In this document: one piece after another, positions 30,208-47,738 of the stretch | How the letters are laid out: the number at the start of each line of letters is the position of its first letter | Numbering within the stretch: position 1 is the stretch's first letter | From: Anaerolineales bacterium | Lineage (GTDB): Bacteria > Chloroflexota > Anaerolineae > Anaerolineales > Villigracilaceae | Direction of reading: 5' to 3' | DNA length: 49,037 bases | Assembly: GCA_027053005.1 (NCBI GenBank) | Contig: JALUEF010000073.1 | Location: 1 to 49,037 of the forward strand | The notes under the pieces: generated by a model | Databases searched by the model: none | Told to the model about the DNA's origin: nothing | Seen by the model: only the letters and a program-made list of their open reading frames with translations | Program-made: the position numbers and the translations under genes

Positions 30208-30212
30208 TCTGG

Positions 30213-30242: not shown

Positions 30243-30260
30243 AACCCAAAGGTCGTCAAA

Positions 30261-30357
30261 GATTGTGTTGGCTGAGTAAAGCAAAGGCCGTACCGAAGCC
30301 AACGGTGCTGGTCAAACCGCTGGTTTCGGTACGACGCCTTCAACGTCACTCAACCAG
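30261..30357 (+). repeat. palindromic repeat family B, partial copy (3' module)
   Basis: 'gttggctgagtaaagcaaaggccgtaccgaagccaacggtgctggtcaaaccgctggtttcggtacgacgccttcaacgtcactcaaccag' aligns closely with 31868-31959. Confidence 0.75.
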
Positions 30358-30953
30358 CCTCCAGCAGCGCGGGCCGGCCGCCGCTCCCAGGCCGCTTTGA
30401 CCATCTGCGGCGTGGAAGGGGCGGGTCAGGAAGGGGTATCAGACCAACTTACGGTTTTGGTTTCCCAACAAGGCGGCTTGCTTGCGGTTGATGAGCGCGG
30501 TGTTGATGGAGCAGGACGAAGCCTGGCCACTGGGCGCCTTTATCTCCGCTTCGAGAAGGTCACCGAAAGGAAGCCTACCTGGCGGACTGCTCTCCTATGT
30601 TAAAGTGTTCGCCGCCTTTCGAGGACACCACCGTTGCCCCTTTTTACAGAAAGAACTTGACACTATCTGCCAAGGCAGCGCTCCATCTTTGACCATGCCG
30701 CAGAGAAGCAAGTTTACAACCAGAAGAACCTCTATTCCCAATGCGAGAAGCAATTTGTTGGCATTGTGAACGTATCGTTTCCTGCCTGCAAACGCCCAGG
30801 AAACAGAGTGAAAGCCCATAAGTACCATACAAGTAAGCAACAAAATTGAAGTCATCATCAACATATCAAAGTTGTGTAAACCGTGTAAAGAAAAACCAAT
30901 GTGATGTACTCTTCGTTTTTTCTTGACAACGGAGCGCTGATTCCGGTGCGCCG

Positions 30954-31022
30954 CCTGCGCTACGTTTCGGCAGGCTCAGCGACCGCTCAACCAGCGAAGA
31001 TTGCGTTGACAGAGTAGTGAAG
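30954..31022 (+). repeat. palindromic repeat family B, partial copy (5' module)
   Basis: 'cctgcgctacgtttcggcaggctcagcgaccgctcaaccagcgaagattgcgttgacagagtag' aligns with 31821-31880. Confidence 0.7.
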
Positions 31023-31110
31023 AACGCCCGCACTCCTCTCCTGCACCGTCATACAGGGTCGCAGGCCCTTGCAACAACCATTTCAATCCGCAGCGCGGGG
31101 CGGACCATTC

Positions 31111-31959: not shown

Positions 31960-32160
31960 GTCAGCAGGGGCGCGAAATGAATTTCGCGCTACAGGGTGCG
32001 GCCCAGCGACCGCTCAACGAGCACGTAGCCCATTGGTCAACCTGCGTGAAGATCAAAAATTTTTTTGTTTTTAAGGCAAGGAAGCACAAGAATGCACAGC
32101 GCGGCAAAAATATCGTATACTATCCCTGCTTTTTATCCTGCCAATCCAAGGAGTACGCCC

Positions 32161-33813: not shown

Positions 33814-33820
33814 TGCTGCC

Positions 33821-33852
33821 ATGCCGTGACACTTGGTCACGGCATTTTTCAT
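33821..33852 (+). terminator. intrinsic terminator after hutU
   Basis: Perfect 10-bp stem atgccgtgac(33821-30)/gtcacggcat(33836-45), 5-nt loop, then 'ttttcatctttt'. Confidence 0.75.
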
Positions 33853-33874
33853 CTTTTCACACGGAGAAGAAGCA

Positions 33875-34747
33875 ATGAGTGAAACCCGCAAGAAGATCAC
33901 CCTGCCCTATCTTTTCAAAAAGGCCGCCGAGGGCGAGCCGATCTCCTGGCTGACCTGCTACGACTACCCCACCGCCTACCTGCAAGAACAGGCCGGCGTG
34001 GAGATGATCCTGGTCGGCGACAGCCTGGGGATGACCATGCTCGGCTACGACAGCACCCTGCCCGTGACGATGAACGACATGATCCGGCACGCTTCCGCCG
34101 TGCGCCGCGGCGCACCGACTGCCTTCGTGGTGGGCGATATGCCCTACATGTCCTACCAGCCGAGCAACGAACTGGCCGTCCAAAACGCCGGGCGTTTCAT
34201 GGCCGAAGCCGGCTGCGACGCCATCAAACTGGAAGGCGGCGCGGCCATGGCCCCGCGCATCAAGGCCATCGTCGAGGCCGGCATCCCGGCCATCGGGCAT
34301 TTGGGCCTCACGCCGCAATCCGCCTCGGCGCTGGGCGGTTTCCGACTGCAAGGCAAATCAGCTGCTCTGGCCAAAAAGATCATCGACGACGCCAAAGCCC
34401 TGGAAGAAGCCGGCGCCTTTGCCATCCTGCTGGAACTCGTCCCCGACCGCCTGTGCCAGATCATCACCGAACGCGCCGAAAACTGCCTGATCTTCTCGCT
34501 CGGCTCCGGACCGCACGCCCACGGGCAGCTGCTGATTTACCACGATATGTTCGGCCTGTACCCCAAATTCAAACCGCGCATGGCCAAAGTCTATGGCAAC
34601 GCCGGCGAAATCATCCAACAGGGGCTGGCCAGTTACGTGGAAGAGGTCAAGGGACGCGTCTTCCCGGCGCCGGAAAATTACTTCGGCATGAAAGACGAAG
34701 AATACGAACAATTGCTTCAACTGCTGGAGGAAGAAGACAATGACTGA
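33875..34747 (+). CDS. panB: 3-methyl-2-oxobutanoate hydroxymethyltransferase
   Basis: ATG 33875 follows GGAGAAG. 'LTCYDYPTA', 'ILVGDSLGMTMLGYDSTLPVTM', 'GHLGLTPQS' and 'HGQLLIYHDMFG'. Confidence 0.9.
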   Translation: MSETRKKITLPYLFKKAAEGEPISWLTCYDYPTAYLQEQAGVEMILVGDSLGMTMLGYDSTLPVTMNDMIRHASAVRRGAPTAFVVGDMPYMSYQPSNELAVQNAGRFMAEAGCDAIKLEGGAAMAPRIKAIVEAGIPAIGHLGLTPQSASALGGFRLQGKSAALAKKIIDDAKALEEAGAFAILLELVPDRLCQIITERAENCLIFSLGSGPHAHGQLLIYHDMFGLYPKFKPRMAKVYGNAGEIIQQGLASYVEEVKGRVFPAPENYFGMKDEEYEQLLQLLEEEDND

Positions 34748-36011
34748 AGACCTGCGCGCCCGCCTGCGCATCACGCCCGAGAGCCTGGCAGCCGTCAATG
34801 AGATTTTCCTGAACCCCGATACGCGGGTGGTCAACGCCCTGCTGGACGTGGTTGCCCGTTATGGCACGCCGGAAGAAATCAACGCCCGCGCCAACGAAGC
34901 CAGCCGCCTGGAAAACCTGCTCGAGAAGGTGCGGCAGACCCGCCCCGAATACCTGGACGACCTGAACTGGCTGATGGAACAACGCGATCAAGGCGCTTTC
35001 ATCGGCGTGGGCGATTACCGCCGCCAGCTGCTGGGCGAGAAAGCCGACCAGATGACCTTCGCCGACGACTACGCCGTTACGCTGGAAGTCTCGGCCCTGC
35101 AATACTTCCCCTGGATCCGCCCGATGTGTGAACGCGCCCTGGCCGAAGGCAGCCTGGTTCCCGGGCGTTTGATCCGCGTGCGCAAGATGAAAGAACAGGA
35201 AGCCGACGGCGACCTGCCCGCCGTGGCCGCCGCCATGCAGATCATCGGCGCTTCCTGGGTGGAGACGCTCGACACCAAAGGCACCGACGGCTCCAACATC
35301 CACCTGGGCGGCCCGGAGACCATCACCGGCTACTTCGGCGGCGTCGGCCAGCCCGATGAGCACGCCCTGCAATGGGTGGACGAATTTCTGTATTACTACA
35401 CCGAATACGGTGTGCGCGAGGTGCTCAACATCAACCCGGGCACGGTGCTGCTGGGCTACATGCTCTACAAACTGGGCGTGGATATCCGCTTCAAGATCTC
35501 GGTCTTCATGGGCAACGACAACCCCTACGCTGCCCTGTGGACGCTGATCGGCGCCAAGCTCTTCTCACGCGAAGACGGCAGCACCCCGCTGATCGGCTTC
35601 AACTGGTCCAACTCGGTGCACAACTCCACCCTGGAGATCACCGACCAGGTGCGGGCCATGCTGGGTTTTACCGACAAAATTCGCTTCGAACACCACATCA
35701 CCGAGACGTGGAAGAGCATCGTCATTCAGCCCTACGACCGGCGCGCCGAACTGATGCAACTGGCCGACCACGTGGCCAACATCAGCGCCAAACACGAAGG
35801 CGGACTGCCAGAAGTGGAAGCCAAACGCGAACACCCCTCCGACATCCTCGACTACTTCCGCGACAAGGAGGAGGTCATCGCCTCGGGCGACTGGGAGGCC
35901 ATGCAGCAAAACTTCCTGGACAAGGTGGCCGCCGCCAACAGCACCGCCCGTATGCTAACCGAAAACGGGCTTTCTTTCATCGCTGCCCGCCACCTGCACC
36001 ACCGCGGGTAA
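34740..36011 (+). CDS. conserved-looking 423-aa soluble protein of unrecognised family, translationally coupled to panB
   Basis: ATG 34740 overlaps the panB stop by 8 nt. The long ORF has normal composition and no TM segments or motifs I can name ('SNIHLGGPETITGYFGG', 'FMGNDNPYAALW', 'RFEHHITETW'). Confidence 0.7.
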   Translation: MTEDLRARLRITPESLAAVNEIFLNPDTRVVNALLDVVARYGTPEEINARANEASRLENLLEKVRQTRPEYLDDLNWLMEQRDQGAFIGVGDYRRQLLGEKADQMTFADDYAVTLEVSALQYFPWIRPMCERALAEGSLVPGRLIRVRKMKEQEADGDLPAVAAAMQIIGASWVETLDTKGTDGSNIHLGGPETITGYFGGVGQPDEHALQWVDEFLYYYTEYGVREVLNINPGTVLLGYMLYKLGVDIRFKISVFMGNDNPYAALWTLIGAKLFSREDGSTPLIGFNWSNSVHNSTLEITDQVRAMLGFTDKIRFEHHITETWKSIVIQPYDRRAELMQLADHVANISAKHEGGLPEVEAKREHPSDILDYFRDKEEVIASGDWEAMQQNFLDKVAAANSTARMLTENGLSFIAARHLHHRG

Positions 36012-36681: not shown

Positions 36682-37840
36682 AAAATGCTGGTCTTTGCTG
36701 GCCTTGCTGGCCGGCATCCGCACCCTGTTCAACACTGGCTACCGCATGGTATACCCTTTCCTGGGGACGTTTGCCCGGGCGCTCGGCGTGCCGCTGGAAG
36801 ACATGGTTTGGGTGCTCAGCGCCCGCTCCCTGGTCGGCGCTGCCCTGGCGCCCTTCCTTTCCCGCGTTGCCGATACCCGCGGGCAGCGCGTCGGCATGGT
36901 GCTGGGGTTGGGCATGTTCGCCCTGAGCATGAGCTGGGTGGTCTTTTGGCCGACATTCTGGTCGCTGGCGGCGGCGCTGATCACCGGCACCGTGGCCAAA
37001 TACACCTTTGCCCCGGCCATGCAAGCCTATCTTGGCGAGCGCGTCCCCTACGATCAGCGCGGGCTGGCCCTTTCTGTCACCGAATTAGGATGGTCGCTGG
37101 CGTTCATCGGCGGCGTGCCGCTGGTGGGTTTTCTCATTGCCCGCTGGGGGTGGCTATCTCCCTTCCCGTTGTTGGGCGGTCTGGCCTTTCTGGCATTGCT
37201 CTTGCTCTGGCGCACCTTGCCCAAAGAATCTCCCGCGACGGTGAAAACCCGCCGCCAGGGCAAGGCGGGTTTTGTCGCTGTGCTGACTTCTCCCGTGGCG
37301 CTGGCCGGGCTTTCCGTCGGCTTTCTCGCCAGCAGCGCCAACGAGGTCGTCAACCTTCTTTTGGGCGTCTGGCTGGAGGATGCCTTTGGCCTGCAAATCG
37401 CGGCGCTGGGCGCGGCCTCTGCCGTCATTGGCCTTTCGGAACTGGGCGGCGAGGGCCTGGTGGCGGCGTTCTCCGATCGCATGGGGAAAAAGCGGGCCGT
37501 TGCCCTGGGACTGGGTGGAAACATCCTGGCCGCGCTCCTGCTTCCCTGGCTGGGCCGCAGCGTAGTTGGCGCGCTGCTCGGGTTGTTTCTCTTTTACATT
37601 ACCTTTGAATTCACCCTTGTGTCCAGCATCCCGCTGATGACGGAATTACTGCCACAGGCGCGTGCTACCCTGATGGCCTTCAACGTTACCATGCTCTCCC
37701 TCGGGCGGGCTCTTGGCGCGCCTATGGGAACGTTTCTGTATCGTTATGGGTTTCCAACGGTGGTGTTAGGCGCGGTTGCCCTCAACGGGTTGGCCTTGCT
37801 GACGCTCCGTCAGGTAAAAGAAGAACAGGCCGCCCGTTGA
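36674..37840 (+). CDS. MFS transporter
   Basis: About 12 hydrophobic helices. 'YRMVYPFLGTFARALG' and 'RVADTRGQR' look like MFS loop motifs. The start could be 36662 or 36674. Confidence 0.8.
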   Translation: MNKKCWSLLALLAGIRTLFNTGYRMVYPFLGTFARALGVPLEDMVWVLSARSLVGAALAPFLSRVADTRGQRVGMVLGLGMFALSMSWVVFWPTFWSLAAALITGTVAKYTFAPAMQAYLGERVPYDQRGLALSVTELGWSLAFIGGVPLVGFLIARWGWLSPFPLLGGLAFLALLLLWRTLPKESPATVKTRRQGKAGFVAVLTSPVALAGLSVGFLASSANEVVNLLLGVWLEDAFGLQIAALGAASAVIGLSELGGEGLVAAFSDRMGKKRAVALGLGGNILAALLLPWLGRSVVGALLGLFLFYITFEFTLVSSIPLMTELLPQARATLMAFNVTMLSLGRALGAPMGTFLYRYGFPTVVLGAVALNGLALLTLRQVKEEQAAR

Positions 37841-37854
37841 CAGGCGGCCTGTTG
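37825..37854. terminator. hairpin between convergent genes (possible bidirectional terminator, no U-tract)
   Basis: Perfect 11-bp stem aacaggccgcc(37825-35)/ggcggcctgtt(37844-54) spanning the MFS stop codon. Confidence 0.35.
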
Positions 37855-37858
37855 GCCT

Positions 37859-38941
37859 TCAGGGGATGTATTCGCCGGGGGAACCAAAACGCACCAATTG
37901 CCAGTTGCGGATGTAATCCGGCTGCGTGGGATCGATGCGCTCAACGCTGAAGCATTCCGCCGGGATGAGCGGCAATCCGTCGGCGCCGTCGTCGTACACG
38001 CTTTTCAGGTATTTGGAGCCAATCCGCGGTGTGCCGTAAGTGGAGATCGGCATGCCTTGCATCGCCGTCCGCCCGCCAACATAGAGCACAACGACATCGT
38101 GGTAGAGGGCATCGGCCCGCATCCCATAGAAATGGTCGCCCAGGCGGATGTCTTCCGCAACGGTCAGGATCACCGTCCCTGGCGGGAAGTTGTAAGGCAT
38201 CCGGTAGGGGCGCGGCCCGTTCATGTACTGCGGCGGCAAGACAACGGCCACCCCTTGCGGCGGGATCTCGGTGCTGTTGAAGATCAGCCCTTCGCCGAAG
38301 GTCAAATCCGGGTTGCGCTGCGACCAGGCCACCAGGCGCTGCCCACGATAATCGGAGTTGGGGCTGTAAATCCACATGTCGCTCACGTCCACCGGCACAT
38401 CGCCCATGTTGTACAGCTCGATGTACTGGTTATAGCGCTTGAAATCATCGCCGCCGCACACGTTGATCATCACCTCGCTGATGATGACCTGCCCCAATTG
38501 GCCGGTGGGAGAGGCCACTGCCGTGGGAGATGCGGAGACAGCGGTCGGCGCAACAATGCGCACTTCGGAAACCGGCGTGGGCGTTGCTGCCGGTGCGACC
38601 ACCTCGCACTGCCGCTCAAACGTCCAGCGCTCATCATCCCGCGAGACAGTCACCCGCACGGTCACCATCCCTGGCTCGGGCGGCGCGGTAAATTCGGCTG
38701 TAACCCCCTCTTGCAGGCTCACCAACGCCCCAGCCGGGACGGAATTCCATTCGTATTTCAGGTTGCCCGGCGGCTGCGCCCCCTGCAAGCTAAAGGCAAT
38801 CGTCTCGCCCGGCTGCAGTTCGCATTCGTCCGGAAGGATTTTAAACGAGGGTTTGGGTGGGGGGGGCGTAAAAAGCCCGCAGCCGCTCAACACCAGGGCC
38901 GCCAGCGCAATGAAAGCGAGGATGCGTACCTTATTGTCCAT
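37859..38941 (-). CDS. lipoprotein with N-terminal Ig-like domain and C-terminal lamin-tail-domain (LTD)
   Basis: Lipobox 'LVLSGC'. PT-rich linker. 'VIISEVMINVCGGDDFKRYNQYIELYNMGDVPVDVSDMWI' is an LTD signature. Confidence 0.75.
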   Translation of the reverse strand: MDNKVRILAFIALAALVLSGCGLFTPPPPKPSFKILPDECELQPGETIAFSLQGAQPPGNLKYEWNSVPAGALVSLQEGVTAEFTAPPEPGMVTVRVTVSRDDERWTFERQCEVVAPAATPTPVSEVRIVAPTAVSASPTAVASPTGQLGQVIISEVMINVCGGDDFKRYNQYIELYNMGDVPVDVSDMWIYSPNSDYRGQRLVAWSQRNPDLTFGEGLIFNSTEIPPQGVAVVLPPQYMNGPRPYRMPYNFPPGTVILTVAEDIRLGDHFYGMRADALYHDVVVLYVGGRTAMQGMPISTYGTPRIGSKYLKSVYDDGADGLPLIPAECFSVERIDPTQPDYIRNWQLVRFGSPGEYIP

Positions 38942-39647
38942 TGTCTTCTACCTGTATGATCAGAGGGAAAAACGCTTTTTGAGAACAAAACTGTTGGCTG
39001 GCAACCAACGTCAAGACGCCTTGCCCGGGATGGCTGGCGGTGGACAGGGTGACGTTGCACCCCCGACTGACGTTGATGGAATCGAAGGCGTTGCCAGCCT
39101 GTTGCCATTCGCAGGTGATGGTCTTGCCTTCTTCCACTGGCGCAGCGATGATGGTGATCGACTGCCCGGAGGAGATGGTCACCGTATCGCCAGTGAAATA
39201 AGAAACATCGTTGATCGAGAACTTCACCGCCCCCGGCGCCTGGCAATACGGCAGCAAAAAGAAGCTCAACAGGACGACAACCCCAACGACGGCAAAGTGA
39301 AACCCCAGGGGCAAGGCCCGAAAATAAGCGCGCAACTTGGGGTTGGACAGAATTTTATCCAGCCCAACGTTCAGAAACCTGACCGAGGTGATGTCCACCA
39401 GGCGGCCAGCGGCAAACACCGCGCTGGTCAACCCCAGGGAGACCACCAGCATCGCCAATCGCGGGTATATGCTGCCGTTGATCAAATCGACGATGGGTTT
39501 CAACCGCTCCGGAATGGCCTGGAAGAACATGGCCATGACGATCACAGCCCAGGCCAGCAAATACATCCCCAATCCACGCGCCAGGTCGCCCCAGGAAAAA
39601 ACGGGGTCTTGAGGAGATGGCTTGGGTTGGTCATTTTGTTTGTTCAT
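38931..39647 (-). CDS. membrane protein (about 4 TM) with C-terminal Ig-like domain
   Basis: RBS AGGAG. TM helices, then 'AVKFSINDVSYFTGDTVTISSGQSITIIAAPVEEGKTITCEWQQAG...'. Overlaps the downstream LTD gene by 11 nt. Confidence 0.6.
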   Translation of the reverse strand: MNKQNDQPKPSPQDPVFSWGDLARGLGMYLLAWAVIVMAMFFQAIPERLKPIVDLINGSIYPRLAMLVVSLGLTSAVFAAGRLVDITSVRFLNVGLDKILSNPKLRAYFRALPLGFHFAVVGVVVLLSFFLLPYCQAPGAVKFSINDVSYFTGDTVTISSGQSITIIAAPVEEGKTITCEWQQAGNAFDSINVSRGCNVTLSTASHPGQGVLTLVASQQFCSQKAFFPLIIQVEDNGQ

Positions 39648-39814: not shown

Positions 39815-40669
39815 TTACAGAGAGAGGAGCAACATGGTGCTGAACATATACAGCGAGGCATATTTGAACAGCCCGAAGTTCACCCGCTCCGAGGGGCGCA
39901 CCAGGCTGAGCACCGCCAGCACCAGCAATCCCAGGGAAAGCAAAGCAATGAGCTGCAAATACCCCCAGGCCGTTCCCAGTTGCCAGGCGATGCCGCCGAT
40001 GACTGCCGCGGCCAGCACACTGGCAACGGCGATGATCCAGCGGGTCGTTGTCTCGCCATAGGTTGAAGGGAAGGTCGGCACGCCGGCCCGACTGTAGTCA
40101 ACGCCATAGCGCAAGCTGAAGGTGAGGATGTGCGTCGGGATCCACAATAAGATCGACAGAGCCAGCAACAACCCGACTGCATCGATCGCTCCCACGCCCA
40201 GCACGCGCCCCGCCAGGATCGGCATCCCGCCGGAAACACCGCCCCAGACGATCGACCAGCAGGTGCGACGCTTCAGCCAGATGGTGTAAACCACCACATC
40301 GAAGAACAAACCGGCAAAGACGACCAAGCCATACAGCGGATCCATCCATACCGCCAGGCCAACGCCTAACAGCGAGAGGACCAGCCCCAGGCGCAGAGCC
40401 TCATTTGGCGGCAGTTCTCCACTGGGCAGGGGACGCCGCGAGGTGCGCGCCATGCAGGCGTCGATGTCCCGGTCGTACCACATATTGAGCACCGTGCTGC
40501 CACTGATCGCCAGCAGCAGGCTGAGGCTCAACCCCAGCAGCGTGCGCCAGTGCGTCACCGGGCAGCGGGCGGTAAAGTATCCGGCCAGGCCGGTCAACAA
40601 CAACAACGCCGTTTGCATACTTTTGATCAGCGGCCAATAAAGCCGGATTTTCTTGCGCAAGACTTGCAT
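39815..40669 (-). CDS. ctaB: protoheme IX farnesyltransferase (heme O synthase)
   Basis: ATG 40669 follows GAGGAGGAAGG. UbiA motif 'NMWYDRDIDACMARTSRRPLPSG'. About 8-9 TM. Confidence 0.9.
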   Translation of the reverse strand: MQVLRKKIRLYWPLIKSMQTALLLLTGLAGYFTARCPVTHWRTLLGLSLSLLLAISGSTVLNMWYDRDIDACMARTSRRPLPSGELPPNEALRLGLVLSLLGVGLAVWMDPLYGLVVFAGLFFDVVVYTIWLKRRTCWSIVWGGVSGGMPILAGRVLGVGAIDAVGLLLALSILLWIPTHILTFSLRYGVDYSRAGVPTFPSTYGETTTRWIIAVASVLAAAVIGGIAWQLGTAWGYLQLIALLSLGLLVLAVLSLVRPSERVNFGLFKYASLYMFSTMLLLSL

Positions 40670-40697
40670 GGCGACCTTCCTCCTCTTTTTGGCGGCT

Positions 40698-41687
40698 TCA
40701 GGGTTGAGCATCACGCGCGCAACGGAAGCCGACATCCGGCGCGTAATACTCCGGCCCGGCCATGTTGAACTTCCAGACGCGCAGGTCCACTTCATACGAA
40801 TAGTAGCTGCCACCGCGCAAGTTGCGGTAATGCATGTCGGCGAAATCGTCTCCTATCCATTGCCAGACATTGCCAGCCATATCATACAGGCCGTAAGGGC
40901 TGGGAGAATCAAGCGTCTCATACCCGTCGTAGGTTCGCCCATTGTAAAAACCGACCGGCGTCGTATTCCCCAGTTTGCCGAACATGCGCTCGAAAAGGTC
41001 GAAGGACGAATAGTAGTTGGCGTTGTTGGGCGCGATCTCATCTCCCCAGGGGAAGGGACGGCCATGCCCTTCTTCATCGATTTCCACACCGCGGGCCGCC
41101 TTCTCCCATTCGGCATCCAGCGGCAGCCGCCAACCGTAAAACTCGCAGTAGGCATTGGCGCCAAACCAAGAAACCATCGTCATCGGGTGGTTGGCATACT
41201 CAGGGATCGGCGCAAAGGTCTCGCCGTCGAAGGTCAGGCGCAAGGGCGCCTCCTCCAGCGGAATGTATAGTTTCACCCCGGGTTCAATCCGCATTTCGTG
41301 ATCGTACCCATCAAAGGGGTCGCCGGGATAATACCCGCCCACGCCTTCCACCGTGCGGAGGGCCACATACTCATCGTCTTCCACGTTGAAGCCGGAATCG
41401 ACCTCAATGGCCCCGATGGTCAAAACGCCAGCGGCCAGCGCCTCGTTCAAAAAGCGGGCATATTGCGCCACCGTCACATCGGTGACCATGATCTCATAAT
41501 CGTAAGGCAGGTCGCGGAGGGCATCGTGCTGCCCGTAGGGGAAGGGGCCGGCCGGGACCAGCGCCCAGGCCTCCGGGTCTATGCCCGTATCAATGTACGG
41601 CGGCGTTATGGCGCCCACTTCCGGGGCGGAAGAACAACCGCTCAACACCAGCAGCGCAACCAGCATCGCCAGAAACAGACGTTTCAT
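40698..41687 (-). CDS. FGE/SUMF1-domain (formylglycine-generating-enzyme family) lipoprotein
   Basis: Lipobox 'LLVLSGC'. 'PMTMVSWFGANAYCEFYGWRLPLDAEWEKAARG', 'GNVWQWIGDDF', 'LRGGSYY' and 'GFRCARD'. The ATG overlaps the upstream stop (ATGA). Confidence 0.85.
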   Translation of the reverse strand: MKRLFLAMLVALLVLSGCSSAPEVGAITPPYIDTGIDPEAWALVPAGPFPYGQHDALRDLPYDYEIMVTDVTVAQYARFLNEALAAGVLTIGAIEVDSGFNVEDDEYVALRTVEGVGGYYPGDPFDGYDHEMRIEPGVKLYIPLEEAPLRLTFDGETFAPIPEYANHPMTMVSWFGANAYCEFYGWRLPLDAEWEKAARGVEIDEEGHGRPFPWGDEIAPNNANYYSSFDLFERMFGKLGNTTPVGFYNGRTYDGYETLDSPSPYGLYDMAGNVWQWIGDDFADMHYRNLRGGSYYSYEVDLRVWKFNMAGPEYYAPDVGFRCARDAQP

Positions 41688-43225
41688 TTTTCGGCCTCCT
41701 TGAGGATGGCCTGAATTTCTTCCAGGCGCTGTTTTTGATCTTCCAGTTCGGCTTGCAACGACGCTTTTTGTTCCAGCGTCAATTCCTGGCTCCAGGCGCC
41801 CTGTTCCAGGAACAAGTCCACCAATCGCCAAATCATGACCAGGGCCAACACAATGAGCACGGTGGCCAGGCCAAAATCCATCAGCAGCATGGTCCAGTTG
41901 ACCACATTCTGCTGCGCCGCAGCGCTGACGAACAGCCGCTTCATCGAGAAGACCGTCGCCGAGGCAAAGGCCAGGTCGGAACAAAGGATGATCGTCCAGC
42001 CAACGATCTGCCGTTTACGTCCCTTCAGGCCGGCCAGGTCGAGGTAATAGAACAGGATAATGGTGGCGATCAGCGCCGAGAGGATGTGCCAGTGCCCGGT
42101 CAGGGTGATGCGTTCTTCGCGCAGCGGCCACACCCGAAAGATATCCTCCAATTTGACCGCCATGAAAATCCCCACGCCGCTGACGGTGAAATTCATGAAC
42201 ACCATTTGCCAGCCAGAGCCAAACTTGAGCGGATCGTGGAAGAGCGCGCGCAGCTTCTGCCCCAGCGTGGGGTTGGCAATGCCTTCCTCGGCCAGCCGTT
42301 CACGAATGAGCACACCCCAAGAGTAGATGACATAAAAGAGCGCCGCCAGCATTACAAAGACGGACCCCACATAAACGATGGCATGTGCCCATTCCAGCCA
42401 GACGACCGACAAAGCGCCAGCCGTCATGGTGATGGTGCCGCTGATCATCAGCCACATGGCCCAGGTGTGCAGCCGGCCTTTGAAATCCAGCCAGCGGCCC
42501 ACAATCAGGGTGATGCCCACCGCCAGCAAGGCAACCATGATGTGCAAGTGCCCGATGACCGCCTTTTGCAAAGCCGTCTTGTGCGGAATGCGGATCAGGT
42601 CTTCTGCCAGGAAGGTTTCATGGCCGTTCGACCAATACGAACCCGTGACCGCGCCCCAGGTGGCAGAAACCAGCAAGGCAATGGCCATGGTGAAAAAGGC
42701 CGCGCGCTCCAGATCTACCCCGCTGCGGGTGTGTGCATAGGGAGAATTCGCCGGCAGGCGATATTCCTTGCGCCAGGGCCACAAGGCCAGCGCCAACAAA
42801 ATGCCAGCGAAAAAGATCAGCGTCAACCCCACCAGGTAGAGACCATGAAAGGCAAAATTGCGTCCAAAATAGGCAAACCCCAGGCCAAAGAACATGGTGG
42901 TGATGTAACCCACAGTGATGATGCCGTTGATGGTCAGGCGTTCGCGCTGCTTCATCTTCACCAGGTGGGTGGTAAAGTAAACTTCAATGGCAACGACGGC
43001 CATCGCAATGGTGTGATACAGCATGATAATGCGGCCTTCGCGCTCCGCCTGCACCAAACGCATGTTCAACAGGCGGACGGTGATATCGCGCACACCCCAT
43101 TCGACCATTGGGCCGGACAGCGTCCCCCAGATGGCCGTCACCAGCGAGATCAAGGCAATTGCAACCAGGGTCAGGCCGCGCGTGGAACCAAAAAGGTATT
43201 GCCAGCGTTTTTTCAAAGCGTCCAT
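41684..43225 (-). CDS. about 12-TM histidine-rich integral membrane protein with C-terminal coiled coil; family not recognised (HCO/NnrS-like His pattern)
   Basis: ATG 43225 lies 6 nt after GGAG. Twelve hydrophobic segments by eye. TM-embedded His in 'LYHTIAM', 'FAFHGLYL', 'IGHLHIMVA', 'RLHTWAM', 'WAHAIVY' and 'TGHWHILSA'. Tail 'LEQKASLQAELEDQKQRLEEIQAILKEAEK'. Confidence 0.7.
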   Translation of the reverse strand: MDALKKRWQYLFGSTRGLTLVAIALISLVTAIWGTLSGPMVEWGVRDITVRLLNMRLVQAEREGRIIMLYHTIAMAVVAIEVYFTTHLVKMKQRERLTINGIITVGYITTMFFGLGFAYFGRNFAFHGLYLVGLTLIFFAGILLALALWPWRKEYRLPANSPYAHTRSGVDLERAAFFTMAIALLVSATWGAVTGSYWSNGHETFLAEDLIRIPHKTALQKAVIGHLHIMVALLAVGITLIVGRWLDFKGRLHTWAMWLMISGTITMTAGALSVVWLEWAHAIVYVGSVFVMLAALFYVIYSWGVLIRERLAEEGIANPTLGQKLRALFHDPLKFGSGWQMVFMNFTVSGVGIFMAVKLEDIFRVWPLREERITLTGHWHILSALIATIILFYYLDLAGLKGRKRQIVGWTIILCSDLAFASATVFSMKRLFVSAAAQQNVVNWTMLLMDFGLATVLIVLALVMIWRLVDLFLEQGAWSQELTLEQKASLQAELEDQKQRLEEIQAILKEAEK

Positions 43226-43292: not shown

Positions 43293-43916
43293 TCAGGCGT
43301 CCAGCTCCCGGGTGAAACCGACAGCAAAAGCCAGCGTCATCAAAAACAGCAAGGGGGCCAGGATCATCAAAATGAACTCGCCCGTGAAAATGCCGAACAA
43401 CGGTCGGCCGGCTTTGTAAAAGGCCAGGGCAATGCCGCCGATGCCAATCAGCCCGCCGCCGACGCCCACCAGGCCAAAGCCTTTGGGCGCGCTCTTTTTC
43501 ACCAGGCAGAGATACAACGGCAAGCCAAAAATGATCAGCCCCGCCACCCCGTGGAAGAGGGGCACGGCCACGCTTTTGAAGGCCAGCCCGTTGATGCTCG
43601 AAACCGCGATCGCCAGCAAGCCAAAGAGCGCAAACCAGGCGTAATACTTTTTATAGGCCCGCAGGTACTGGTTCATCAGCCCCAGGGAGATGCCCAGCGG
43701 GATAAGCGTTGCCACGGTGAGCACATACGGCGAGTCCAACAACCCCCAGCCGCCAAAGATTAGCAGGACGCCAGAGACCAGCAGCACAACGAAACCCAGG
43801 GCATAGTACGCATCGTACAACCCCTGTTCGCGGCGGTAACGCCCGATGAAACGCCATGCCAGGTAGGCCGCAAGCAATCCAGTCAGCAACAGGACAACTT
43901 GATCGAAGAGTTTCAT
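43293..43916 (-). CDS. hypothetical 207-aa polytopic membrane protein
   Basis: ATG 43916 lies 6 nt after AAGGAG. About six hydrophobic helices and a Gly-rich stretch 'GLVGVGGGLIGIGGIALA'. Confidence 0.65.
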   Translation of the reverse strand: MKLFDQVVLLLTGLLAAYLAWRFIGRYRREQGLYDAYYALGFVVLLVSGVLLIFGGWGLLDSPYVLTVATLIPLGISLGLMNQYLRAYKKYYAWFALFGLLAIAVSSINGLAFKSVAVPLFHGVAGLIIFGLPLYLCLVKKSAPKGFGLVGVGGGLIGIGGIALAFYKAGRPLFGIFTGEFILMILAPLLFLMTLAFAVGFTRELDA

Positions 43917-44116: not shown

Positions 44117-44935
44117 TCAATCCTCTCCTGCGGTCAACATGCGGTTCACGCCGGGCAGCAAGAGCACCACCAGCAAAATCGTGCTTAGAATAGGCGCCGG
44201 CAAGAACATGGAGAAGCGCTGCACCTCGGCCACATTGTGGATACCCATCGGATAACCGCCGAGCATCGACATGACCGCGGCAAAAATGCCCACGGGCAAA
44301 GCCCAGCGACGGCGTTTGATGGCCCCAAAGATAAACATGGCCCAGGCCGCCGCCCCCCACCAGTTGATCTGCTGCGAGATGATGTACATCCCGTTCCAAA
44401 AAGCGCGATCGCCGGCGACGAACTGCGTCGGCCGCTGGAAGGTCGTCTGGAATTTGGAAATCGGCGCCACACCATTGATGAAGGTCAGCACATAGGCCAT
44501 GCCGGCGACAAAGGTCAGCGAAACGATGCCCTTTTCCACGTTGCCGATCCACAACATGCCAAACCAGACCACCGCCGCCAGGAGGAAGACCCACAAAGTC
44601 GGCGTCGGCAGTCCGCTATCCGCCGCCGGAATCATAGGGAAGAAACCAGCCAGCAGCAGAATCGTCCCGGCCACGGCCCCCCAAAACCAGGCCCAATCTT
44701 GTTTTTTCCAAAACCCCCAAAACACAGCCGCCGACAGCGCGCCCGCTGCTGTGCCCAACCAACCCAACACGGCATACACCAGGCGGACGGTGTTGCTTTC
44801 CTCCCATTCGCCCGCGTTGAAGTGCGTGTGAATGACCGTGTTGTAGGTATCGGCCAAGAAATAGAACGTCAGCAGCCCGGCTACCAGGCCGACAAAGGCC
44901 AGAAACATCCCGATCGTGTACTTCTTATTATCCAT
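44117..44935 (-). CDS. hypothetical 272-aa polytopic membrane protein
   Basis: ATG 44935 lies 8 nt after AAGGAG. About 7-8 hydrophobic helices, Trp-rich ('FWGFWKKQDWAWFWG'). No family recognised. Confidence 0.65.
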   Translation of the reverse strand: MDNKKYTIGMFLAFVGLVAGLLTFYFLADTYNTVIHTHFNAGEWEESNTVRLVYAVLGWLGTAAGALSAAVFWGFWKKQDWAWFWGAVAGTILLLAGFFPMIPAADSGLPTPTLWVFLLAAVVWFGMLWIGNVEKGIVSLTFVAGMAYVLTFINGVAPISKFQTTFQRPTQFVAGDRAFWNGMYIISQQINWWGAAAWAMFIFGAIKRRRWALPVGIFAAVMSMLGGYPMGIHNVAEVQRFSMFLPAPILSTILLVVLLLPGVNRMLTAGED

Positions 44936-44991
44936 GGTGTGCACTCCTTACTAAAGGGATTCAGGGATATTGCGGAAACTTGCCCTCCCCT

Positions 44992-45522
44992 TTACGGGAC
45001 GGGCGTTCCCAAAGCGGTCAGCAGACCGCTCAAAAACAAAACCAGCACCACCAACCAGGCGTTGATTTGCAACAATCGCTCACTCAGACGCTGGCGGGCA
45101 GCCCGCATCTGGGCCATTTTTTGCGGGTTGGCGCCCGCTGGCCCTTGTTTCCCGGCCGGGGGTTTGCCCAGAACCAGGCTGCGGTACAACGACATCCCAA
45201 TCATGACGATCACAACCAGGTGTTTCAACGTCAACACTGTCGAATAAGGTGTGCCAAAAGAAAACAGGCGGACGAAATTCGGGTTTCGCTGCGCCATCAA
45301 CATACCGGTAATCACCAGACCGGCCATGCTGTAATAAACGATCCGGCCGTGTCGTTGTTGGAACGCGCGCATCAGCCGCTGGAATTCTTCTCCGCGGCCC
45401 AAAACCTCGTTTGCCACCGGTCGCAAAGAGAACCAGACCACAAGCATCCCGCCCATCCACAAGGCGGTAAACAAAGTGTGCAAAAAACGAATTGAAGCAA
45501 AGCCAAAAGTCTGTCCAGACAT
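44992..45522 (-). CDS. CopD/HemJ-superfamily-like small membrane protein
   Basis: ATG 45522 follows GAAGGAG. TM1 'IRFLHTLFTALWMGGMLVV' has the H-x6-W-x-GG pattern of CopD/HemJ/DUF4149-type proteins. Four TM. Confidence 0.55.
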   Translation of the reverse strand: MSGQTFGFASIRFLHTLFTALWMGGMLVVWFSLRPVANEVLGRGEEFQRLMRAFQQRHGRIVYYSMAGLVITGMLMAQRNPNFVRLFSFGTPYSTVLTLKHLVVIVMIGMSLYRSLVLGKPPAGKQGPAGANPQKMAQMRAARQRLSERLLQINAWLVVLVLFLSGLLTALGTPVP

Positions 45523-45553
45523 AGATACTCCTTCCAGATGCATCCAGTAATTC

Positions 45554-45594
45554 AAAAGGCAGCCGGGCTGTCTTCAGTATGCAGCCCGACTGCC
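45554..45594 (-). terminator. intrinsic terminator after the Crp-family gene
   Basis: 13-bp stem (45558-70 / 45582-94) with one G-U pair, 10-11-nt loop, U-tract on the minus strand (plus-strand aaaa 45554-57). Confidence 0.65.
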
Positions 45595-45621: not shown

Positions 45622-45637
45622 TGTGATTTTTTACACT
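45622..45637. promoter_or_regulatory. weaker CRP-format site TGTGA-N6-ACACT
   Basis: 'TGTGAttttttACACt' keeps the GTG-N8-CAC core. It overlaps the crp stop codon, about 100 nt upstream of ATG 45522. Confidence 0.3.
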
Positions 45638-46329
45638 TCCCCTCTGCGTGCCAAAGCCTCCCGATCCAGGATGAAGATGCCGCTCCGTTCAACTTTGAGC
45701 AGCCCTTCGTTTTCCAGTGTGCGCAAGGCACGGCTGAGCACATCGCGCACTGTGCCCAGGCGCACCGCCATCTCGTCGAAGGTGGTCCAGGGTTGCCGTG
45801 GAATCAACCATCTGCCATTCTGTTCTTCGGCATAACGCAACAAGGTGCGGGCAACGCGGGCTTCTACCTTGCAGAGGCTCAGGTCTTCGATCAAATCCAC
45901 ATAATACAACACCCGCTCTGCCATATGCCGGGCGATGACCATCGTCAACGCCGCCGAATCTTGCGACAGGCGCAAAATCGTCTCTGCCGGCAGCGCCCAG
46001 GCAGCCACCAATTCCAGCGCGGTGACGGTTGCCGGATACGGGACGCCGGAGAAGACGGCCACATCGCCGAACAATTCGCCGGCGTGAAGGAAGCGCAACG
46101 CCTGTTCCCGCCCCCGGCAAGAAACGCGCGTGGCTTTCACCCATCCTTGCGCCAGCAAAAAGACCGCTTCCGCCGGTTCTCCCTCCAAATACACCACCTG
46201 ACCAGCCCGAAAACGCCGCAAATGTGCCGCCCGAATCAGCGCTTCTTGCACATCACCGGGCAAATCGCTAAAGTGAGGCACCTGGGCCAGCAAGCGGCGC
46301 AAACCTGTTTCTGTATCATAAGCGTCCAT
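45631..46329 (-). CDS. Crp/Fnr-family transcriptional regulator (no N-terminal Cys cluster)
   Basis: A cNMP-binding-like beta-roll ('FRAGQVVYLEGEPAEAVFLLAQGWVK...GELFG') plus a C-terminal HTH 'FDEMAVRLGTVRDVLSRALRTLENEGLL'. The ATG overlaps the radA stop (TAATG). Confidence 0.85.
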   Translation of the reverse strand: MDAYDTETGLRRLLAQVPHFSDLPGDVQEALIRAAHLRRFRAGQVVYLEGEPAEAVFLLAQGWVKATRVSCRGREQALRFLHAGELFGDVAVFSGVPYPATVTALELVAAWALPAETILRLSQDSAALTMVIARHMAERVLYYVDLIEDLSLCKVEARVARTLLRYAEEQNGRWLIPRQPWTTFDEMAVRLGTVRDVLSRALRTLENEGLLKVERSGIFILDREALARRGEV

Positions 46330-47738
46330 TACGCCACCTTTTTGGCCTTGCGTCCAGGCGATACCAAAGCCGCGTCCACCGCCTGTTTCAGCGAACGCGC
46401 CTCCACAATTTCCAGGCCCGCCGGCCAACGTTCGCCGCGGCGCAACCGCCGGGGGACGATAGCCGTCCGGAAACCCAGTTTTTGCGCCTCGCGCAAGCGG
46501 GCTGCCATCTGCCCCGGCAGGCGCAGTTCGCCAGCCAGCCCAATCTCTCCAATCAGCACGGTATCGGCGCGCACGGGCACGTCCTGCAACGAGGAAACAA
46601 TGGCCGCCGCCACGGCCAGGTCTGCTGCCGGTTCGTCCACCCGCAGGCCGCCCACCACGTTGACGAAGATATCCTGCTCACCCAGTTTCAGATACAACCG
46701 GCGAGTGAGCACTGCGGTAATCATCAGCAAACGGTTGTAATCCACGCCGTTGGGCGTGCGGCGGGCGTTGCCGTAAGAAGCCGGACTGGTCAAACCCTGC
46801 ACTTCCACCAGCAGCGGACGGGTGCCCTCCATTGTCACAGCGATAGCAGACCCGGGCGCATTGACCATCCGCTCGGCCAAAAAAGCCTCCGATGGATTTT
46901 TCACCTCGCGCAGCCCGCGCTCGTGCATTTCAAAAACCCCCACTTCCGAGGTGGCGCCAAAGCGGTTTTTGACCGAACGCAGCAAACGGTAAGACTGAAA
47001 ACGGTCGCCCTCCAGGTAAAGCACCGTATCTACAATGTGCTCCAGCACGCGCGGCCCAGCGATGTTGCCTTCCTTGGTCACATGACCGATGATGAAAACC
47101 GGCACACCGTGCGATTTCGCCAATTCGCGCAGCTGGGCGGCGCATTCCCGCACCTGAGAAATGGACCCCGCGGAAGATTCCATCTCCGGCAAATACACCG
47201 TCTGGATAGAATCGACAATCAACAAAGCGGGCGCCAGTTCGCGCACATGGTTGAAGATAACCGCCAGGTTGGTTTCCGTCGCCAACAAGAGATCGGCTGG
47301 CAGGGGGGCATCGGCTTGCAAACGTTCCGCCCGCATTTTGATCTGCCGTTCCGACTCCTCACCGGAGACGTACAACACCCGCCGCTGCGCGGCCACCTCC
47401 AGCGCAACCTGCAAAAGCAGGGTTGATTTGCCAATGCCCGGGTCGCCACCGATCAACACCACCGACCCGGGCACAATGCCACCCCCCAGCACCCGCGCCA
47501 GTTCCCCCATCGCCAACGGCAGACGATCCTGGCTGGCGCTATCGATGCGCCCGATCGGCTGCGGCGGGTTAGAAGCCGCCAGGCCGCGCACAGCAGAACG
47601 CGACTTCGCCGGCTTTTCTTCTGCCACCACCTCCTTGCGGTAAGAATCGTATTGGCCGCATTGCGGGCAGCGCCCCAGAAAACTGGCGGCCACGCGGCCA
47701 CAGTTCTGACAAACGTAACGGGTTCGGGTCTTAGCCAT
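46329..47738 (-). CDS. radA: DNA repair protein RadA/Sms
   Basis: Zinc finger 'CQNCG...CPQCG', Walker A 'GGDPGIGKSTLLLQ', 'KNRFGAT', and a Lon-like C-terminal domain. Confidence 0.95.
   Translation of the reverse strand: MAKTRTRYVCQNCGRVAASFLGRCPQCGQYDSYRKEVVAEEKPAKSRSAVRGLAASNPPQPIGRIDSASQDRLPLAMGELARVLGGGIVPGSVVLIGGDPGIGKSTLLLQVALEVAAQRRVLYVSGEESERQIKMRAERLQADAPLPADLLLATETNLAVIFNHVRELAPALLIVDSIQTVYLPEMESSAGSISQVRECAAQLRELAKSHGVPVFIIGHVTKEGNIAGPRVLEHIVDTVLYLEGDRFQSYRLLRSVKNRFGATSEVGVFEMHERGLREVKNPSEAFLAERMVNAPGSAIAVTMEGTRPLLVEVQGLTSPASYGNARRTPNGVDYNRLLMITAVLTRRLYLKLGEQDIFVNVVGGLRVDEPAADLAVAAAIVSSLQDVPVRADTVLIGEIGLAGELRLPGQMAARLREAQKLGFRTAIVPRRLRRGERWPAGLEIVEARSLKQAVDAALVSPGRKAKKVA

What the first reader, a model, noticed from the sequence alone, without database searches (positions are those of the whole stretch)
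41684..43225. 12-TM protein whose histidines fall where heme-copper oxidase subunit I places its metal ligands
By eye there are 12 hydrophobic segments. The His positions are: one in TM2 ('MLYHTIAMAV'), an HxH in TM6 ('VIGHLHIMVALL'), one at the start of TM7 ('RLHTWAMW'), and an HxH in TM10 ('LTGHWHILSALIATIILFY'). Extra His occur in TM4 and at TM8. In heme-copper oxidases the six invariant His are one in TM2 and an HxH in TM10 for the two hemes, plus one in TM6 and two in TM7 for CuB. The TM10 string resembles the classical '..AHFHYVLS..'. The match is positional, not a demonstrated homology. The TM6/TM7 pattern (HxH+H rather than H+HH) and the absence of a subunit II or cytochrome c partner are atypical. 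A ~45-aa cytoplasmic coiled-coil tail is also unusual. NnrS-like or an entirely new family are the alternatives.
Basis: inference. Interest (0 to 1): 0.75.

Follow-up and report, generated by a model that had tools for sequence, protein, structure and literature searches.

The report
Oxidase-like seven-histidine membrane protein family
A highly conserved but unnamed 12-helix membrane protein of Anaerolineae, almost always encoded beside the enzyme that makes heme O, has the build and much of the histidine layout of the catalytic subunit of respiratory heme-copper oxidases without being a recognisable member, so it may be a new kind of heme enzyme.

Summary
The ORF (41684-43225, minus strand, 513 aa) has 12 hydrophobic helices and the histidines described. 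Exactly seven His are invariant in all 134 homologues examined, including relatives at 23-32% identity: H71, H127, H226, H228, H281, H378 and H380. All seven lie in the outer third of TM2, 4, 6, 8 and 10.

No Pfam, NCBIfam or PDB sequence profile matches, so COX1, NnrS and CtaA are not detected. Two independent AlphaFold models (pTM 0.80 and 0.89) both retrieve heme-copper oxidase (HCO) subunit I, and almost nothing else, as best PDB fold (TM 0.44-0.53, E-values weak). A global HMM-HMM alignment puts H226, H281, H378 and H380 on CyoB H284, H333, H419 and H421. Both families are 3 x 4-helix repeats with a His in the second helix of each repeat.

The gene sits in a conserved operon: a ~205-aa 7-TM partner, this gene, an FGE-fold lipoprotein (76/76 loci, once fused) and heme O synthase (65/67). 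The operon also occurs in Brevefilum fermentans, reported to lack cytochrome oxidases.

Best reading: the core of an undescribed, HCO-like, heme O-dependent membrane oxidoreductase. It is not a demonstrable HCO member, and the function is inferred.

The parts
41684..43225 (-). The 12-TM, seven-invariant-His protein (513 aa plus stop). Invariant His codons: H71 43015-43013, H127 42847-42845, H226 42550-42548, H228 42544-42542, H281 42385-42383, H378 42094-42092, H380 42088-42086.
   Evidence: ORF, RBS, hydropathy; conservation; AlphaFold; Foldseek.
42746..43225 (-). Internal repeat 1 (aa 1-160, TM1-4). Carries R65, Y70-H71 in TM2 and H127 at the outer end of TM4.
   Evidence: hhalign of repeat 1 against repeat 3: prob 90%, E 1.4e-6, with H71 aligned to H380.
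42260..42745 (-). Internal repeat 2 (aa 161-322, TM5-8). Carries E208, R212, H226-L-H228 in TM6 and H281 at the outer end of TM8.
   Evidence: hhalign of repeat 2 against repeat 3: prob 96.5%, E 7e-10, with H226/H228 aligned to H378/H380. H127 aligns to H281.
41792..42259 (-). Internal repeat 3 (aa 323-478, TM9-12). Carries R364, E371 and H378-W-H380 in TM10.
   Evidence: The local hhalign hit to CyoB 374-522 aligns GHWH with AHFH.
41687..41791 (-). Cytoplasmic charged helical tail (aa 479-513), specific to the Anaerolineae/Calditrichota subfamily.
   Evidence: Helix 477-512 in the model; absent from distant members.
43293..43916 (-). Conserved partner gene: a ~207-aa protein with ~7 TM and one invariant His (FH-G/S-VAGLI).
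   Evidence: There are 2815 homologues, all 'hypothetical'. A homologue lies directly upstream of the 12-TM gene in Anaerolineae (54/67 loci), in the distant L022 lineage (34% id, E 1e-13) and in genome CP062310 (38% id, E 4e-21).
44117..44944 (-). 275-aa polytopic membrane protein, a frequent operon member.
   Evidence: No family match. A homologue lies upstream in 36/57 loci.
44992..45555 (-). CopD-like 187-aa membrane protein, a lineage-specific addition.
   Evidence: Pfam CopD E 1.8e-8. Present in only 6 of 80 related loci.
45631..46329 (-). Crp/Fnr-family regulator at the head of the cluster (probable start at M34 of the listed ORF).
   Evidence: cNMP_binding plus HTH_Crp_2. A homologue is nearby in 32/45 loci, on either strand.
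40698..41687 (-). FGE-sulfatase-fold lipoprotein, translationally coupled to the 12-TM gene (ATGA overlap, GGAGG RBS).
   Evidence: Pfam FGE-sulfatase E 8.6e-35 and a lipobox; overlap. Directly downstream in 76/76 loci. Fused to the 12-TM protein through one extra TM in P0122.
39815..40813 (-). Heme O synthase (CtaB/CyoE). The true start is probably near 40669.
   Evidence: NCBIfam TIGR01473 scores 223.8 bits, above the 210.3 cut-off. Present in 65/67 loci. Also adjacent in the distant L022 lineage.
37859..39647 (-). Two lineage-specific genes at the operon's distal end: a 238-aa membrane protein (38931-39647) and a 360-aa lamin-tail-domain lipoprotein (37859-38941).
   Evidence: No counterparts in the 80 related loci.
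37824..37853 (-). Strong terminator-like hairpin that closes the minus-strand gene string.
   Evidence: 13-bp stem with 9 GC pairs, followed by a T-rich tail.

Best explanation
The gene encodes the core subunit of an undescribed membrane oxidoreductase built on the same ground plan as HCO subunit I.

Shown:
- It has 12 TM helices made of three 4-helix repeats.
- It has N-in/C-in topology.
- Seven invariant His sit in the outer third of TM2, 4, 6, 8 and 10.
- It is encoded with heme O synthase, a ~205-aa 7-TM partner with one invariant His, and (in Anaerolineae and Calditrichota) an extracytoplasmic FGE-fold lipoprotein.

Inferred:
- The His bind hemes. These would be heme O supplied by the co-operonic CtaB, probably together with heme B.
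- By analogy with HCO, H71 plus H380 would hold a low-spin heme and H378 a second heme on the other face of TM10.
- H226 and H281 (with E208 or E371) would hold a non-heme metal, or would act as distal ligands beside the second heme.
- H228 and H127 would form an extra site in the position that is empty in HCO.
- No cytochrome c or cupredoxin is encoded, so electrons would come from membrane quinol.
- The acceptor would be a small oxidant (O2 or NO). This would give these mostly anaerobic bacteria a scavenging or terminal oxidase-like activity under a Crp/Fnr-type regulator.
For: 1. Seven His, Y70, E208, R364 and E371 are invariant down to 23% identity.
2. All seven His lie 0-8 residues from the outer end of their helices. 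K+R counts are 24 inside against 13 outside.
3. Two independent models (pLDDT 74 / pTM 0.80, and pLDDT 87 / pTM 0.89) give HCO subunit I as the top PDB folds at prob 1.0 and TM 0.44-0.53. In the second model 26 of the first 27 hits are HCO subunit I.
4. The in-register global HMM-HMM alignment matches four ligand His exactly; the reversed control gives nothing.
5. Both this family and HCO show a 3 x 4-TM repeat with a His in the second helix of each repeat.
6. Heme O synthase is adjacent in 65/67 loci and again in a lineage only 26% identical.
7. The operon is present in a Brevefilum fermentans MAG. The genome of that species is reported to lack cytochrome oxidase and electron-transport complexes (PMC5481317). 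Heme O would therefore have no other known client there.
8. Identity stays at 65-73% across orders of Anaerolineae and into Calditrichota, which indicates strong constraint.
Against: - No sequence profile of COX1 matches. Local hhalign probabilities are only 12-17%, and are nil against the cbb3 and NOR alignments.
- Foldseek E-values are all above 0.001 and RMSD is 8-10 A.
- With the A-family alignment alone, the best alignment slips by one repeat, so the His matches partly reflect periodicity.
- Masking the His keeps the helix register but loses the exact residue matches.
- The H334 equivalent is Ala, the cross-link Tyr is absent, and there is no subunit II.
- H127 and H281 sit at the membrane surface, not at heme depth.
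- Some distant homologues have no CtaB nearby, including one in a genome that looks like an anaerobic archaeon.
- I could not inspect model coordinates, so convergence of the His on cofactor-sized cavities is untested.
- No experimental data exist.
Confidence: 0.4

Rival explanations
1. Heme O-handling protein. The 12-TM protein receives heme O from CtaB and modifies it (an analogue of heme A synthase), or chaperones or inserts it into client proteins. It would not itself be a terminal redox enzyme.
For: The gene lies close to ctaB (FGE-fold gene between them), loosely recalling the ctaA-ctaB arrangement. It is built from 4-TM units with His in the second and fourth helices (H71/H127, H226-228/H281). 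From my own knowledge this is the layout of CtaA (His in TM2, 4, 6, 8), and a 4-TM archaeal CtaA exists (table in PMC8239418).
Against: Pfam COX15-CtaA gives no hit at E<=10 in 17 members. hhalign against the CtaA N-terminal fragments I could obtain gives nothing, though this is a weak test. The CtaA structures 6a2j and 8aw5 are not among the top 50 Foldseek hits, whereas HCO subunit I dominates. Chloroflexi already have canonical CtaA. In Brevefilum, which is reported to lack oxidases, a heme O processor would have no client.
Confidence: 0.18
2. Electron-conduit cytochrome. The protein is a multi-heme b/o membrane cytochrome that only passes electrons from quinol across the outer half of the membrane. 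The recipient would be the FGE-fold lipoprotein or another extracytoplasmic acceptor, where the chemistry takes place.
For: The FGE-fold gene is invariably next door (76/76), is translationally coupled and is once fused. Seven His could make three bis-His sites plus one. There is no Tyr or third CuB His for oxygen chemistry.
Against: By eye, and from my memory of the human SUMF1 motif, the FGE-fold protein lacks the two Cu-binding Cys of true FGE, so it has no obvious redox centre (sequence). Distant homologues keep the seven His and the 7-TM partner without any FGE-fold gene. H127 and H281 lie at a different depth from the HxH pairs.
Confidence: 0.17
3. Metal-ion transporter or sensor. The outer-leaflet His, Glu and Arg line a Cu/Zn/Ni/Fe path, and the link to heme O synthase is indirect.
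For: HxH motifs and buried Glu/Arg occur in metal transporters (own knowledge). A CopD-like gene sits in this window's operon.
Against: The CopD-like gene is present in only 6 of 80 loci. No transporter fold scores above prob 0.6 in Foldseek. CtaB adjacency recurs in lineages only 26% identical. All invariant His are confined to one leaflet rather than spanning the membrane.
Confidence: 0.08
4. A bona fide but extremely divergent member of the HCO superfamily (for example a new NO-reductase-type family) with the canonical two hemes plus a three-ligand non-heme metal.
For: The same evidence as for the best explanation: fold matches, four aligned ligand His and the shared 3 x 4-TM repeat.
Against: A defining feature is tested and not met: the H334 equivalent is Ala, and the TM2 His is out of register. 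There is no COX1 profile hit and no subunit II, NorC or CcoO. The family has two additional invariant His that HCOs lack.
Confidence: 0.07

Closest known systems
Heme-copper oxidoreductase subunit I (CyoB/CtaD, CcoN, NorB; Pfam PF00115)
   Same: Both have 12 core TM helices, N-in/C-in topology and a 3 x 4-TM internal repeat with a His in the second helix of each repeat. Both carry an HxH in TM10 and His in TM2 and TM6 in the outer third of the membrane. HCO subunit I is the best and nearly exclusive PDB fold match. A heme O synthase gene sits in the operon, as in cyoABCDE.
   Different: There is no detectable profile match. The family has seven invariant His instead of six: HxH in TM6, single His at the outer ends of TM4 and TM8, and no HH at the end of TM7. 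It has no cross-link Tyr. It has no subunit II, cytochrome c subunit or subunit III. Its partners are a 7-TM one-His protein and an FGE-fold lipoprotein. TM-score is only about 0.5.
Heme A synthase CtaA/COX15 (PF02628; PDB 6a2j, 8aw5)
   Same: Both are built from 4-TM units with His in the second and fourth helices, and both are encoded close to heme O synthase.
   Different: This protein has three units rather than two and carries HxH pairs. There is no profile or hhalign similarity, and CtaA is not retrieved by fold search. The family lacks the conserved extracellular Cys pairs.
NnrS (PF05940), a heme- and copper-containing 12-TM protein of denitrifiers
   Same: Both are 12-TM, His-rich proteins, and this family could plausibly be linked to an NO or O2 response through the Crp/Fnr neighbour.
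   Different: There is no PF05940 hit at E<=10 in any of 17 diverse members. The operon context is different. No solved NnrS structure is available for comparison.

Membership tests
Heme-copper oxidoreductase superfamily, subunit I | Significant match to the COX1 sequence profile (Pfam PF00115) or to solved HCO chains | tested here: not met
   There is no Pfam hit at E<=0.1 for the window protein and none at E<=10 for 17 diverse members. phmmer and profile searches against PDB sequences find no HCO. Local hhalign against my 15-sequence HCO alignment gives prob 17%, P 0.0014.
Heme-copper oxidoreductase superfamily, subunit I | 12-TM core with pseudo-threefold (3 x 4 helix) architecture | tested here: met
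   There are 12 helices. Internal repeats score E 7e-10 and 1.4e-6. The same test on HCO gives E 8.5e-8 for TM1-4 against TM9-12.
Heme-copper oxidoreductase superfamily, subunit I | Three-dimensional fold superposable on solved subunit I | tested here: inconclusive
However TM is 0.44-0.53, RMSD 8-10 A and E 0.002-0.3.
Heme-copper oxidoreductase superfamily, subunit I | Six invariant metal-ligand His: TM2 H, TM6 H, TM7 HH, TM10 HxH | tested here: not met
   The global hhalign gives H226=H284, H281=H333, H378=H419 and H380=H421. H71 is 6 residues off H106, and the H334 position is Ala282. So four of six ligands align exactly, and the set is incomplete.
Heme-copper oxidoreductase superfamily, subunit I | Active-site Tyr cross-linked to a CuB His (O2 reductases), or a Glu cluster at FeB (NOR) | tested here: not met
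   CyoB Y288 aligns with V231. TM6 and TM7 have no conserved Tyr. The invariant Y70, E208 and E371 are at other positions.
Heme-copper oxidoreductase superfamily, subunit I | Co-encoded electron-entry subunit (cupredoxin subunit II, CcoO/NorC cytochrome c) | tested here: not met
   None of the eight operon proteins, nor the conserved neighbours in 80 loci, has such a domain or a CxxCH motif.
Heme-copper oxidoreductase superfamily, subunit I | Two hemes plus Cu or Fe bound; O2 or NO reduction | not testable with these tools
   This needs purified protein.
NnrS | Match to PF05940 | tested here: not met
   There is no hit at E<=10 in 17 members.
Heme A synthase (CtaA/COX15) | Match to PF02628, or similarity to the CtaA sequence or structure | tested here: not met
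   There is no PF02628 hit. hhalign against CtaA N-terminal fragments gives P >= 0.06, which is a weak test because only fragments were available. 6a2j and 8aw5 are absent from the top 50 fold matches.
Heme A synthase (CtaA/COX15) | 4-TM repeat units with His in helices 2 and 4, and a gene next to ctaB | tested here: met
   H71/H127 and H226-228/H281 fit this layout, and H127 aligns with H281 between repeats. ctaB is present in 65/67 loci. This feature is shared with CtaA but does not define it.

The most novel reading that the evidence does not exclude
This family is a surviving sister lineage of the heme-copper oxidases. It would be a 3 x 4-helix heme O protein that still shows its triplication clearly and keeps His ligands in all three repeats, including the 'pore' that is empty in modern oxidases. 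Working with a 7-TM partner instead of subunit II, it would be a quinol-dependent O2 or NO reductase in anaerobic Chloroflexota, Calditrichota and some other lineages. That would make it an unrecognised class of respiratory or detoxifying enzyme and a direct window on how oxidase subunit I arose.
Probability: 0.2. Interest if true: 0.9.

Novelty: new variant of a known kind. Interest (0 to 1): 0.72.

Why it matters
HCOs are the enzymes behind aerobic respiration and NO reduction, and their origin is a long-standing question.

This family has thousands of sequences and close relatives in at least 252 species-level genomes. It has no name in any profile library. It shares the oxidase ground plan but has a different ligand set and different partner subunits. 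It travels with heme O synthase even in an organism described as lacking any oxidase.

If it binds heme O and turns over O2 or NO, three things follow:
- Genome-based calls of 'strict anaerobe, no terminal oxidase' for many Anaerolineae (abundant in digesters, sediments and the subsurface) would need revising.
- Heme O would gain a new client.
- The triplication model for the origin of oxidase subunit I would become directly testable, using a protein in which all three repeats still carry ligands.

If it instead handles heme O, it would be a new step in heme trafficking.

Tried and rejected
- Pfam and NCBIfam scans of the protein and of 17 diverse relatives gave no family.
- phmmer and profile searches of PDB sequences returned only noise such as CALHM4 and elastase.
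- Family-specific hhalign against cbb3 (4 sequences) and NOR (4 sequences) alignments gave nothing. Against the A family it gave a frame-shifted-by-one-repeat alignment.
- For the CtaA test, a tblastn with a remembered COX15 motif found nothing in plasmids. A homologue search with an 81-aa B. subtilis CtaA segment returned only fragments. The CtaA comparison is therefore weak.
- A 50-kb stretch of S. meliloti pSymA, fetched in the hope of finding fixN/norB, held no HCO. CcoN and NorB were then obtained through motif tblastn.
That scan therefore sampled only close relatives.
- The 7-TM partner shows no similarity to oxidase subunit III, to the repeats of the 12-TM protein or to CtaA.
- No HCO or CtaA gene lies within 10 kb in 80 related loci.
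- Six literature searches found no description of this family. A seventh located the Brevefilum fermentans genome paper used above.
- H253 as a CuB ligand is rejected, because it is cytoplasmic and not conserved.
- A catalytic FGE (Cu, two Cys) role for the neighbour is rejected by eye only.
Full report
THE OBJECT

The ORF at 41684-43225 (minus strand) starts at an ATG preceded by AGGAG. It encodes 513 aa. Hydropathy gives 12 segments. AlphaFold gives 12 long helices plus a charged C-terminal helix at 477-512. The positive-inside rule gives 24 K+R in the even-numbered loops of the hydropathy parse (N-terminus, TM2-3, TM4-5 and so on; taken as cytoplasmic) against 13 in the odd-numbered ones. 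The protein is therefore N-in/C-in, like oxidase subunit I.

CONSERVATION

- The protein has at least 3200 database relatives, all called 'hypothetical' and none with a meaningful Pfam domain. The best 120 are 67-90% identical.
- A profile search of 1.8 billion cluster representatives found only 343 clusters. It yielded full-length relatives at 23-32% identity.
- Across 120 close and 14 distant homologues, exactly seven His are invariant: H71 (TM2), H127 (TM4), H226 and H228 (TM6), H281 (TM8), and H378 and H380 (TM10).
- Y70, E208, R364 and E371 are also invariant, and R65, R212 and Y119 nearly so.
- The other six His, including H253 and H202, are not conserved in the wider family.
- All seven invariant His lie 0-8 residues from the outer end of their helices. 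H253 lies at the cytoplasmic end of TM7.

WHAT IT IS NOT, BY SEQUENCE

- Pfam and NCBIfam give nothing for the window protein.
- Pfam at E<=10 gives nothing consistent for 17 diverse members. In particular there is no COX1, NnrS or COX15-CtaA hit.
- Single-sequence and profile searches of all PDB sequences find no oxidase.

FOLD

- The window protein, modelled with 31 sequences, has pLDDT 74 and pTM 0.80. Its best PDB match is cbb3 CcoN (8smr_E: E 0.002, prob 1.0, TM 0.50/0.53). COX1 and another CcoN also appear among the first six hits.
- A relative only 26% identical (P0161), modelled with a more diverse 42-sequence alignment, has pLDDT 87 and pTM 0.89. Of its first 27 PDB matches, 26 are subunit I chains of aa3, cbb3 or qNOR, mostly at prob 0.94-1.0, TM 0.37-0.51 and RMSD mostly 8-10 A.
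- Unrelated transporters and GPCRs score prob below 0.6.
- E-values never pass 0.001. The claim is therefore 'the same overall architecture', not a close structural relative.
- CtaA structures do not appear in the lists.

PROFILE-PROFILE TESTS

I assembled 15 subunit I sequences from E. coli and plasmid records: 6 A-type, 1 B-type, 4 cbb3 and 4 NOR.

- Local hhalign of the family against all 15 gives prob 17%, P 0.0014. It aligns TM9-12 with CyoB 374-522 and GHWH with AHFH.
- Reversed-sequence controls give P 0.2-0.5.
- The cbb3-only and NOR-only alignments give nothing.
- In global mode the alignment is in register over all 12 helices. It puts H226 on CyoB H284, H281 on H333, H378 on H419 and H380 on H421.
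- In the same alignment H71 falls 6 residues from H106, the H334 position is Ala, and Y288 faces Val.
- The reversed control does not align at all.
- Masking the ligand His in the HCO alignment keeps the helix register but shifts residues by 1-9 positions. The exact matches are therefore driven by the His themselves.
- With A-type sequences alone the alignment slips by one repeat: H127 on H333, and H226/H228 on H419/H421.

INTERNAL REPEAT

- TM5-8 against TM9-12 scores prob 96.5%, E 7e-10.
- TM1-4 against TM9-12 scores prob 90%, E 1.4e-6.
- Between repeats, H71, H228 and H380 are equivalent. So are H226 and H378, and so are H127 and H281.
- The same test on my HCO alignment also detects the repeat (TM1-4 against TM9-12, E 8.5e-8). 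It equates H106, H284 and H419.
- Both families are therefore triplicated 4-helix units with a His in the second helix of every unit. This explains the slipped alignment and is a further shared ground plan.

GENOMIC CONTEXT

The gene lies in a minus-strand string that ends at a strong terminator-like hairpin (37824-37853). In order, the string is:

- a Crp/Fnr regulator;
- a CopD-like protein;
- a 275-aa membrane protein;
- a ~207-aa 7-TM protein;
- the target;
- an FGE-sulfatase-fold lipoprotein, whose ATG overlaps the target's TGA;
- heme O synthase (TIGR01473, above its cut-off);
- two lineage-specific genes.

A scan of one genome per species found close relatives in 252 genomes. These are Anaerolineales, Caldilineales, Ardenticatenaceae, Promineifilum and Brevefilum, plus several Calditrichota. 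In the 80 loci fetched, counting only contigs long enough to show each neighbour:

| Neighbour | Loci |
|---|---|
| FGE-fold gene directly downstream | 76/76 |
| Heme O synthase | 65/67 |
| Paralogue of the 7-TM partner after ctaB | 61/64 |
| 7-TM partner upstream | 54/67 |
| 275-aa protein | 36/57 |
| Crp homologue | 32/45 |
| CopD-like gene | 6 loci |

- One database protein (P0122) fuses the 12-TM protein, through one extra TM, to the FGE-fold domain.
- In a lineage only 26% identical (L022), the gene is again flanked by a homologue of the 7-TM partner and by heme O synthase.
- In genome CP062310 the partner homologue is directly upstream, but no ctaB is near.
- Two other distant members stand alone.
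- The partner family has 2815 members, all unnamed, with one invariant His. It shows no similarity to subunit III, CtaA or the target's repeats.
- No HCO or CtaA gene lies within 10 kb in any of the 80 loci.

PHYSIOLOGICAL HINT

A Brevefilum fermentans MAG carries the full core: partner, target, FGE-fold gene, ctaB and partner paralogue. The genome paper for that species states that it lacks a cytochrome oxidase and electron-transport complexes (PMC5481317). Heme O is otherwise known only as a cofactor of HCOs or as the precursor of heme A (own knowledge). In such an organism the most economical client for the operon's heme O synthase is therefore the operon's own His-rich membrane protein. 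In Caldithrix abyssi the heme O synthase gene was noted to lie apart from the cox genes (PMC5317091). I did not verify that this gene belongs to the operon described here.

INTERPRETATION

What is shown:
- a widespread, strongly constrained, unnamed 12-TM family;
- triplicated architecture;
- seven invariant outer-leaflet His;
- an oxidase-subunit-I-like predicted fold;
- a conserved genetic link to heme O synthase and to a 7-TM partner.

What is inferred:
- The His bind heme O/B and perhaps a non-heme metal.
- Electrons come from quinol, because no cytochrome c or cupredoxin is encoded.
- A small oxidant such as O2 or NO is reduced.

I put 0.40 on this oxidase-like reading. The rivals are a heme O-processing or chaperone role (0.18), a pure electron-conduit cytochrome serving the FGE-fold protein (0.17), a metal transporter or sensor (0.08), and a true but extremely divergent HCO member (0.07). 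Membership in HCO, NnrS or CtaA is not supported, because defining features were tested and not met.

LIMITS

- My HCO and CtaA alignments are small.
- The genome scan reached only close relatives.
- Foldseek statistics are weak.
- The identification of CP062310 as an anaerobic archaeon rests on gene content and on my memory.

Noticed in passing
P0122 (database protein, 785 aa); compare window 40698-43225: This is a natural fusion of the 12-TM protein to the FGE-sulfatase-fold domain through one extra TM helix. In the window the same two parts are separate genes overlapping by ATGA. The fusion is a Rosetta-stone indication that they form one complex, with the FGE-fold domain outside the cell membrane.
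   Followed up: partly
L001 13515-14120 and the equivalent position in 61 of 64 related loci; absent from the window: Most genomes carry a second, paralogous copy of the ~200-aa 7-TM partner right after ctaB, often followed by a ~179-aa membrane protein. In this window that position is taken by an unrelated 238-aa membrane protein and a 360-aa lamin-tail-domain lipoprotein.
   Followed up: partly
HCO alignment built here (loci L003-L018): With only 15 sequences, hhalign detects the internal repeat of oxidase subunit I itself (TM1-4 against TM9-12: prob 94%, E 8.5e-8). It equates the ligands H106, H284 and H419 of CyoB.
   Followed up: partly
L021 (CP062310.1, 1.63-Mb complete genome), 7417-9353: The 12-TM protein and its 7-TM partner occur as an adjacent pair in what looks like an anaerobic archaeal genome, with no heme O synthase within 8 kb. 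The pair is older and wider than the Anaerolineae operon and may not always depend on heme O.
   Followed up: no
L105 (Caldithrix sp. MAG) 9429-18904: The Calditrichota locus is rearranged. ctaB and the partner paralogues follow the 12-TM gene about 1 kb downstream (11951 onwards). A second FGE-fold plus UbiA gene pair lies about 6 kb further on.
   Followed up: no
window 12667-14403, 14464-16101 (+), 32071-33900 (-), 34740-36011 (+): Four large ORFs (423-609 aa) have no Pfam match at E<=1e-5. At this G+C content some may be shadow ORFs.
   Followed up: no
window 29971-31100: tRNA-Ser(tga) and tRNA-Lys(ttt) are divergently placed at 29971-30209. They are followed by a ~0.9-kb stretch with no long ORF, in the lowest-G+C part of the window (0.54 against about 0.60).
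   Followed up: no
window 46327-46331: The radA stop codon and the probable ATG of the Crp/Fnr regulator overlap by one base. The regulator may therefore be co-transcribed with radA rather than having its own promoter.
   Followed up: no
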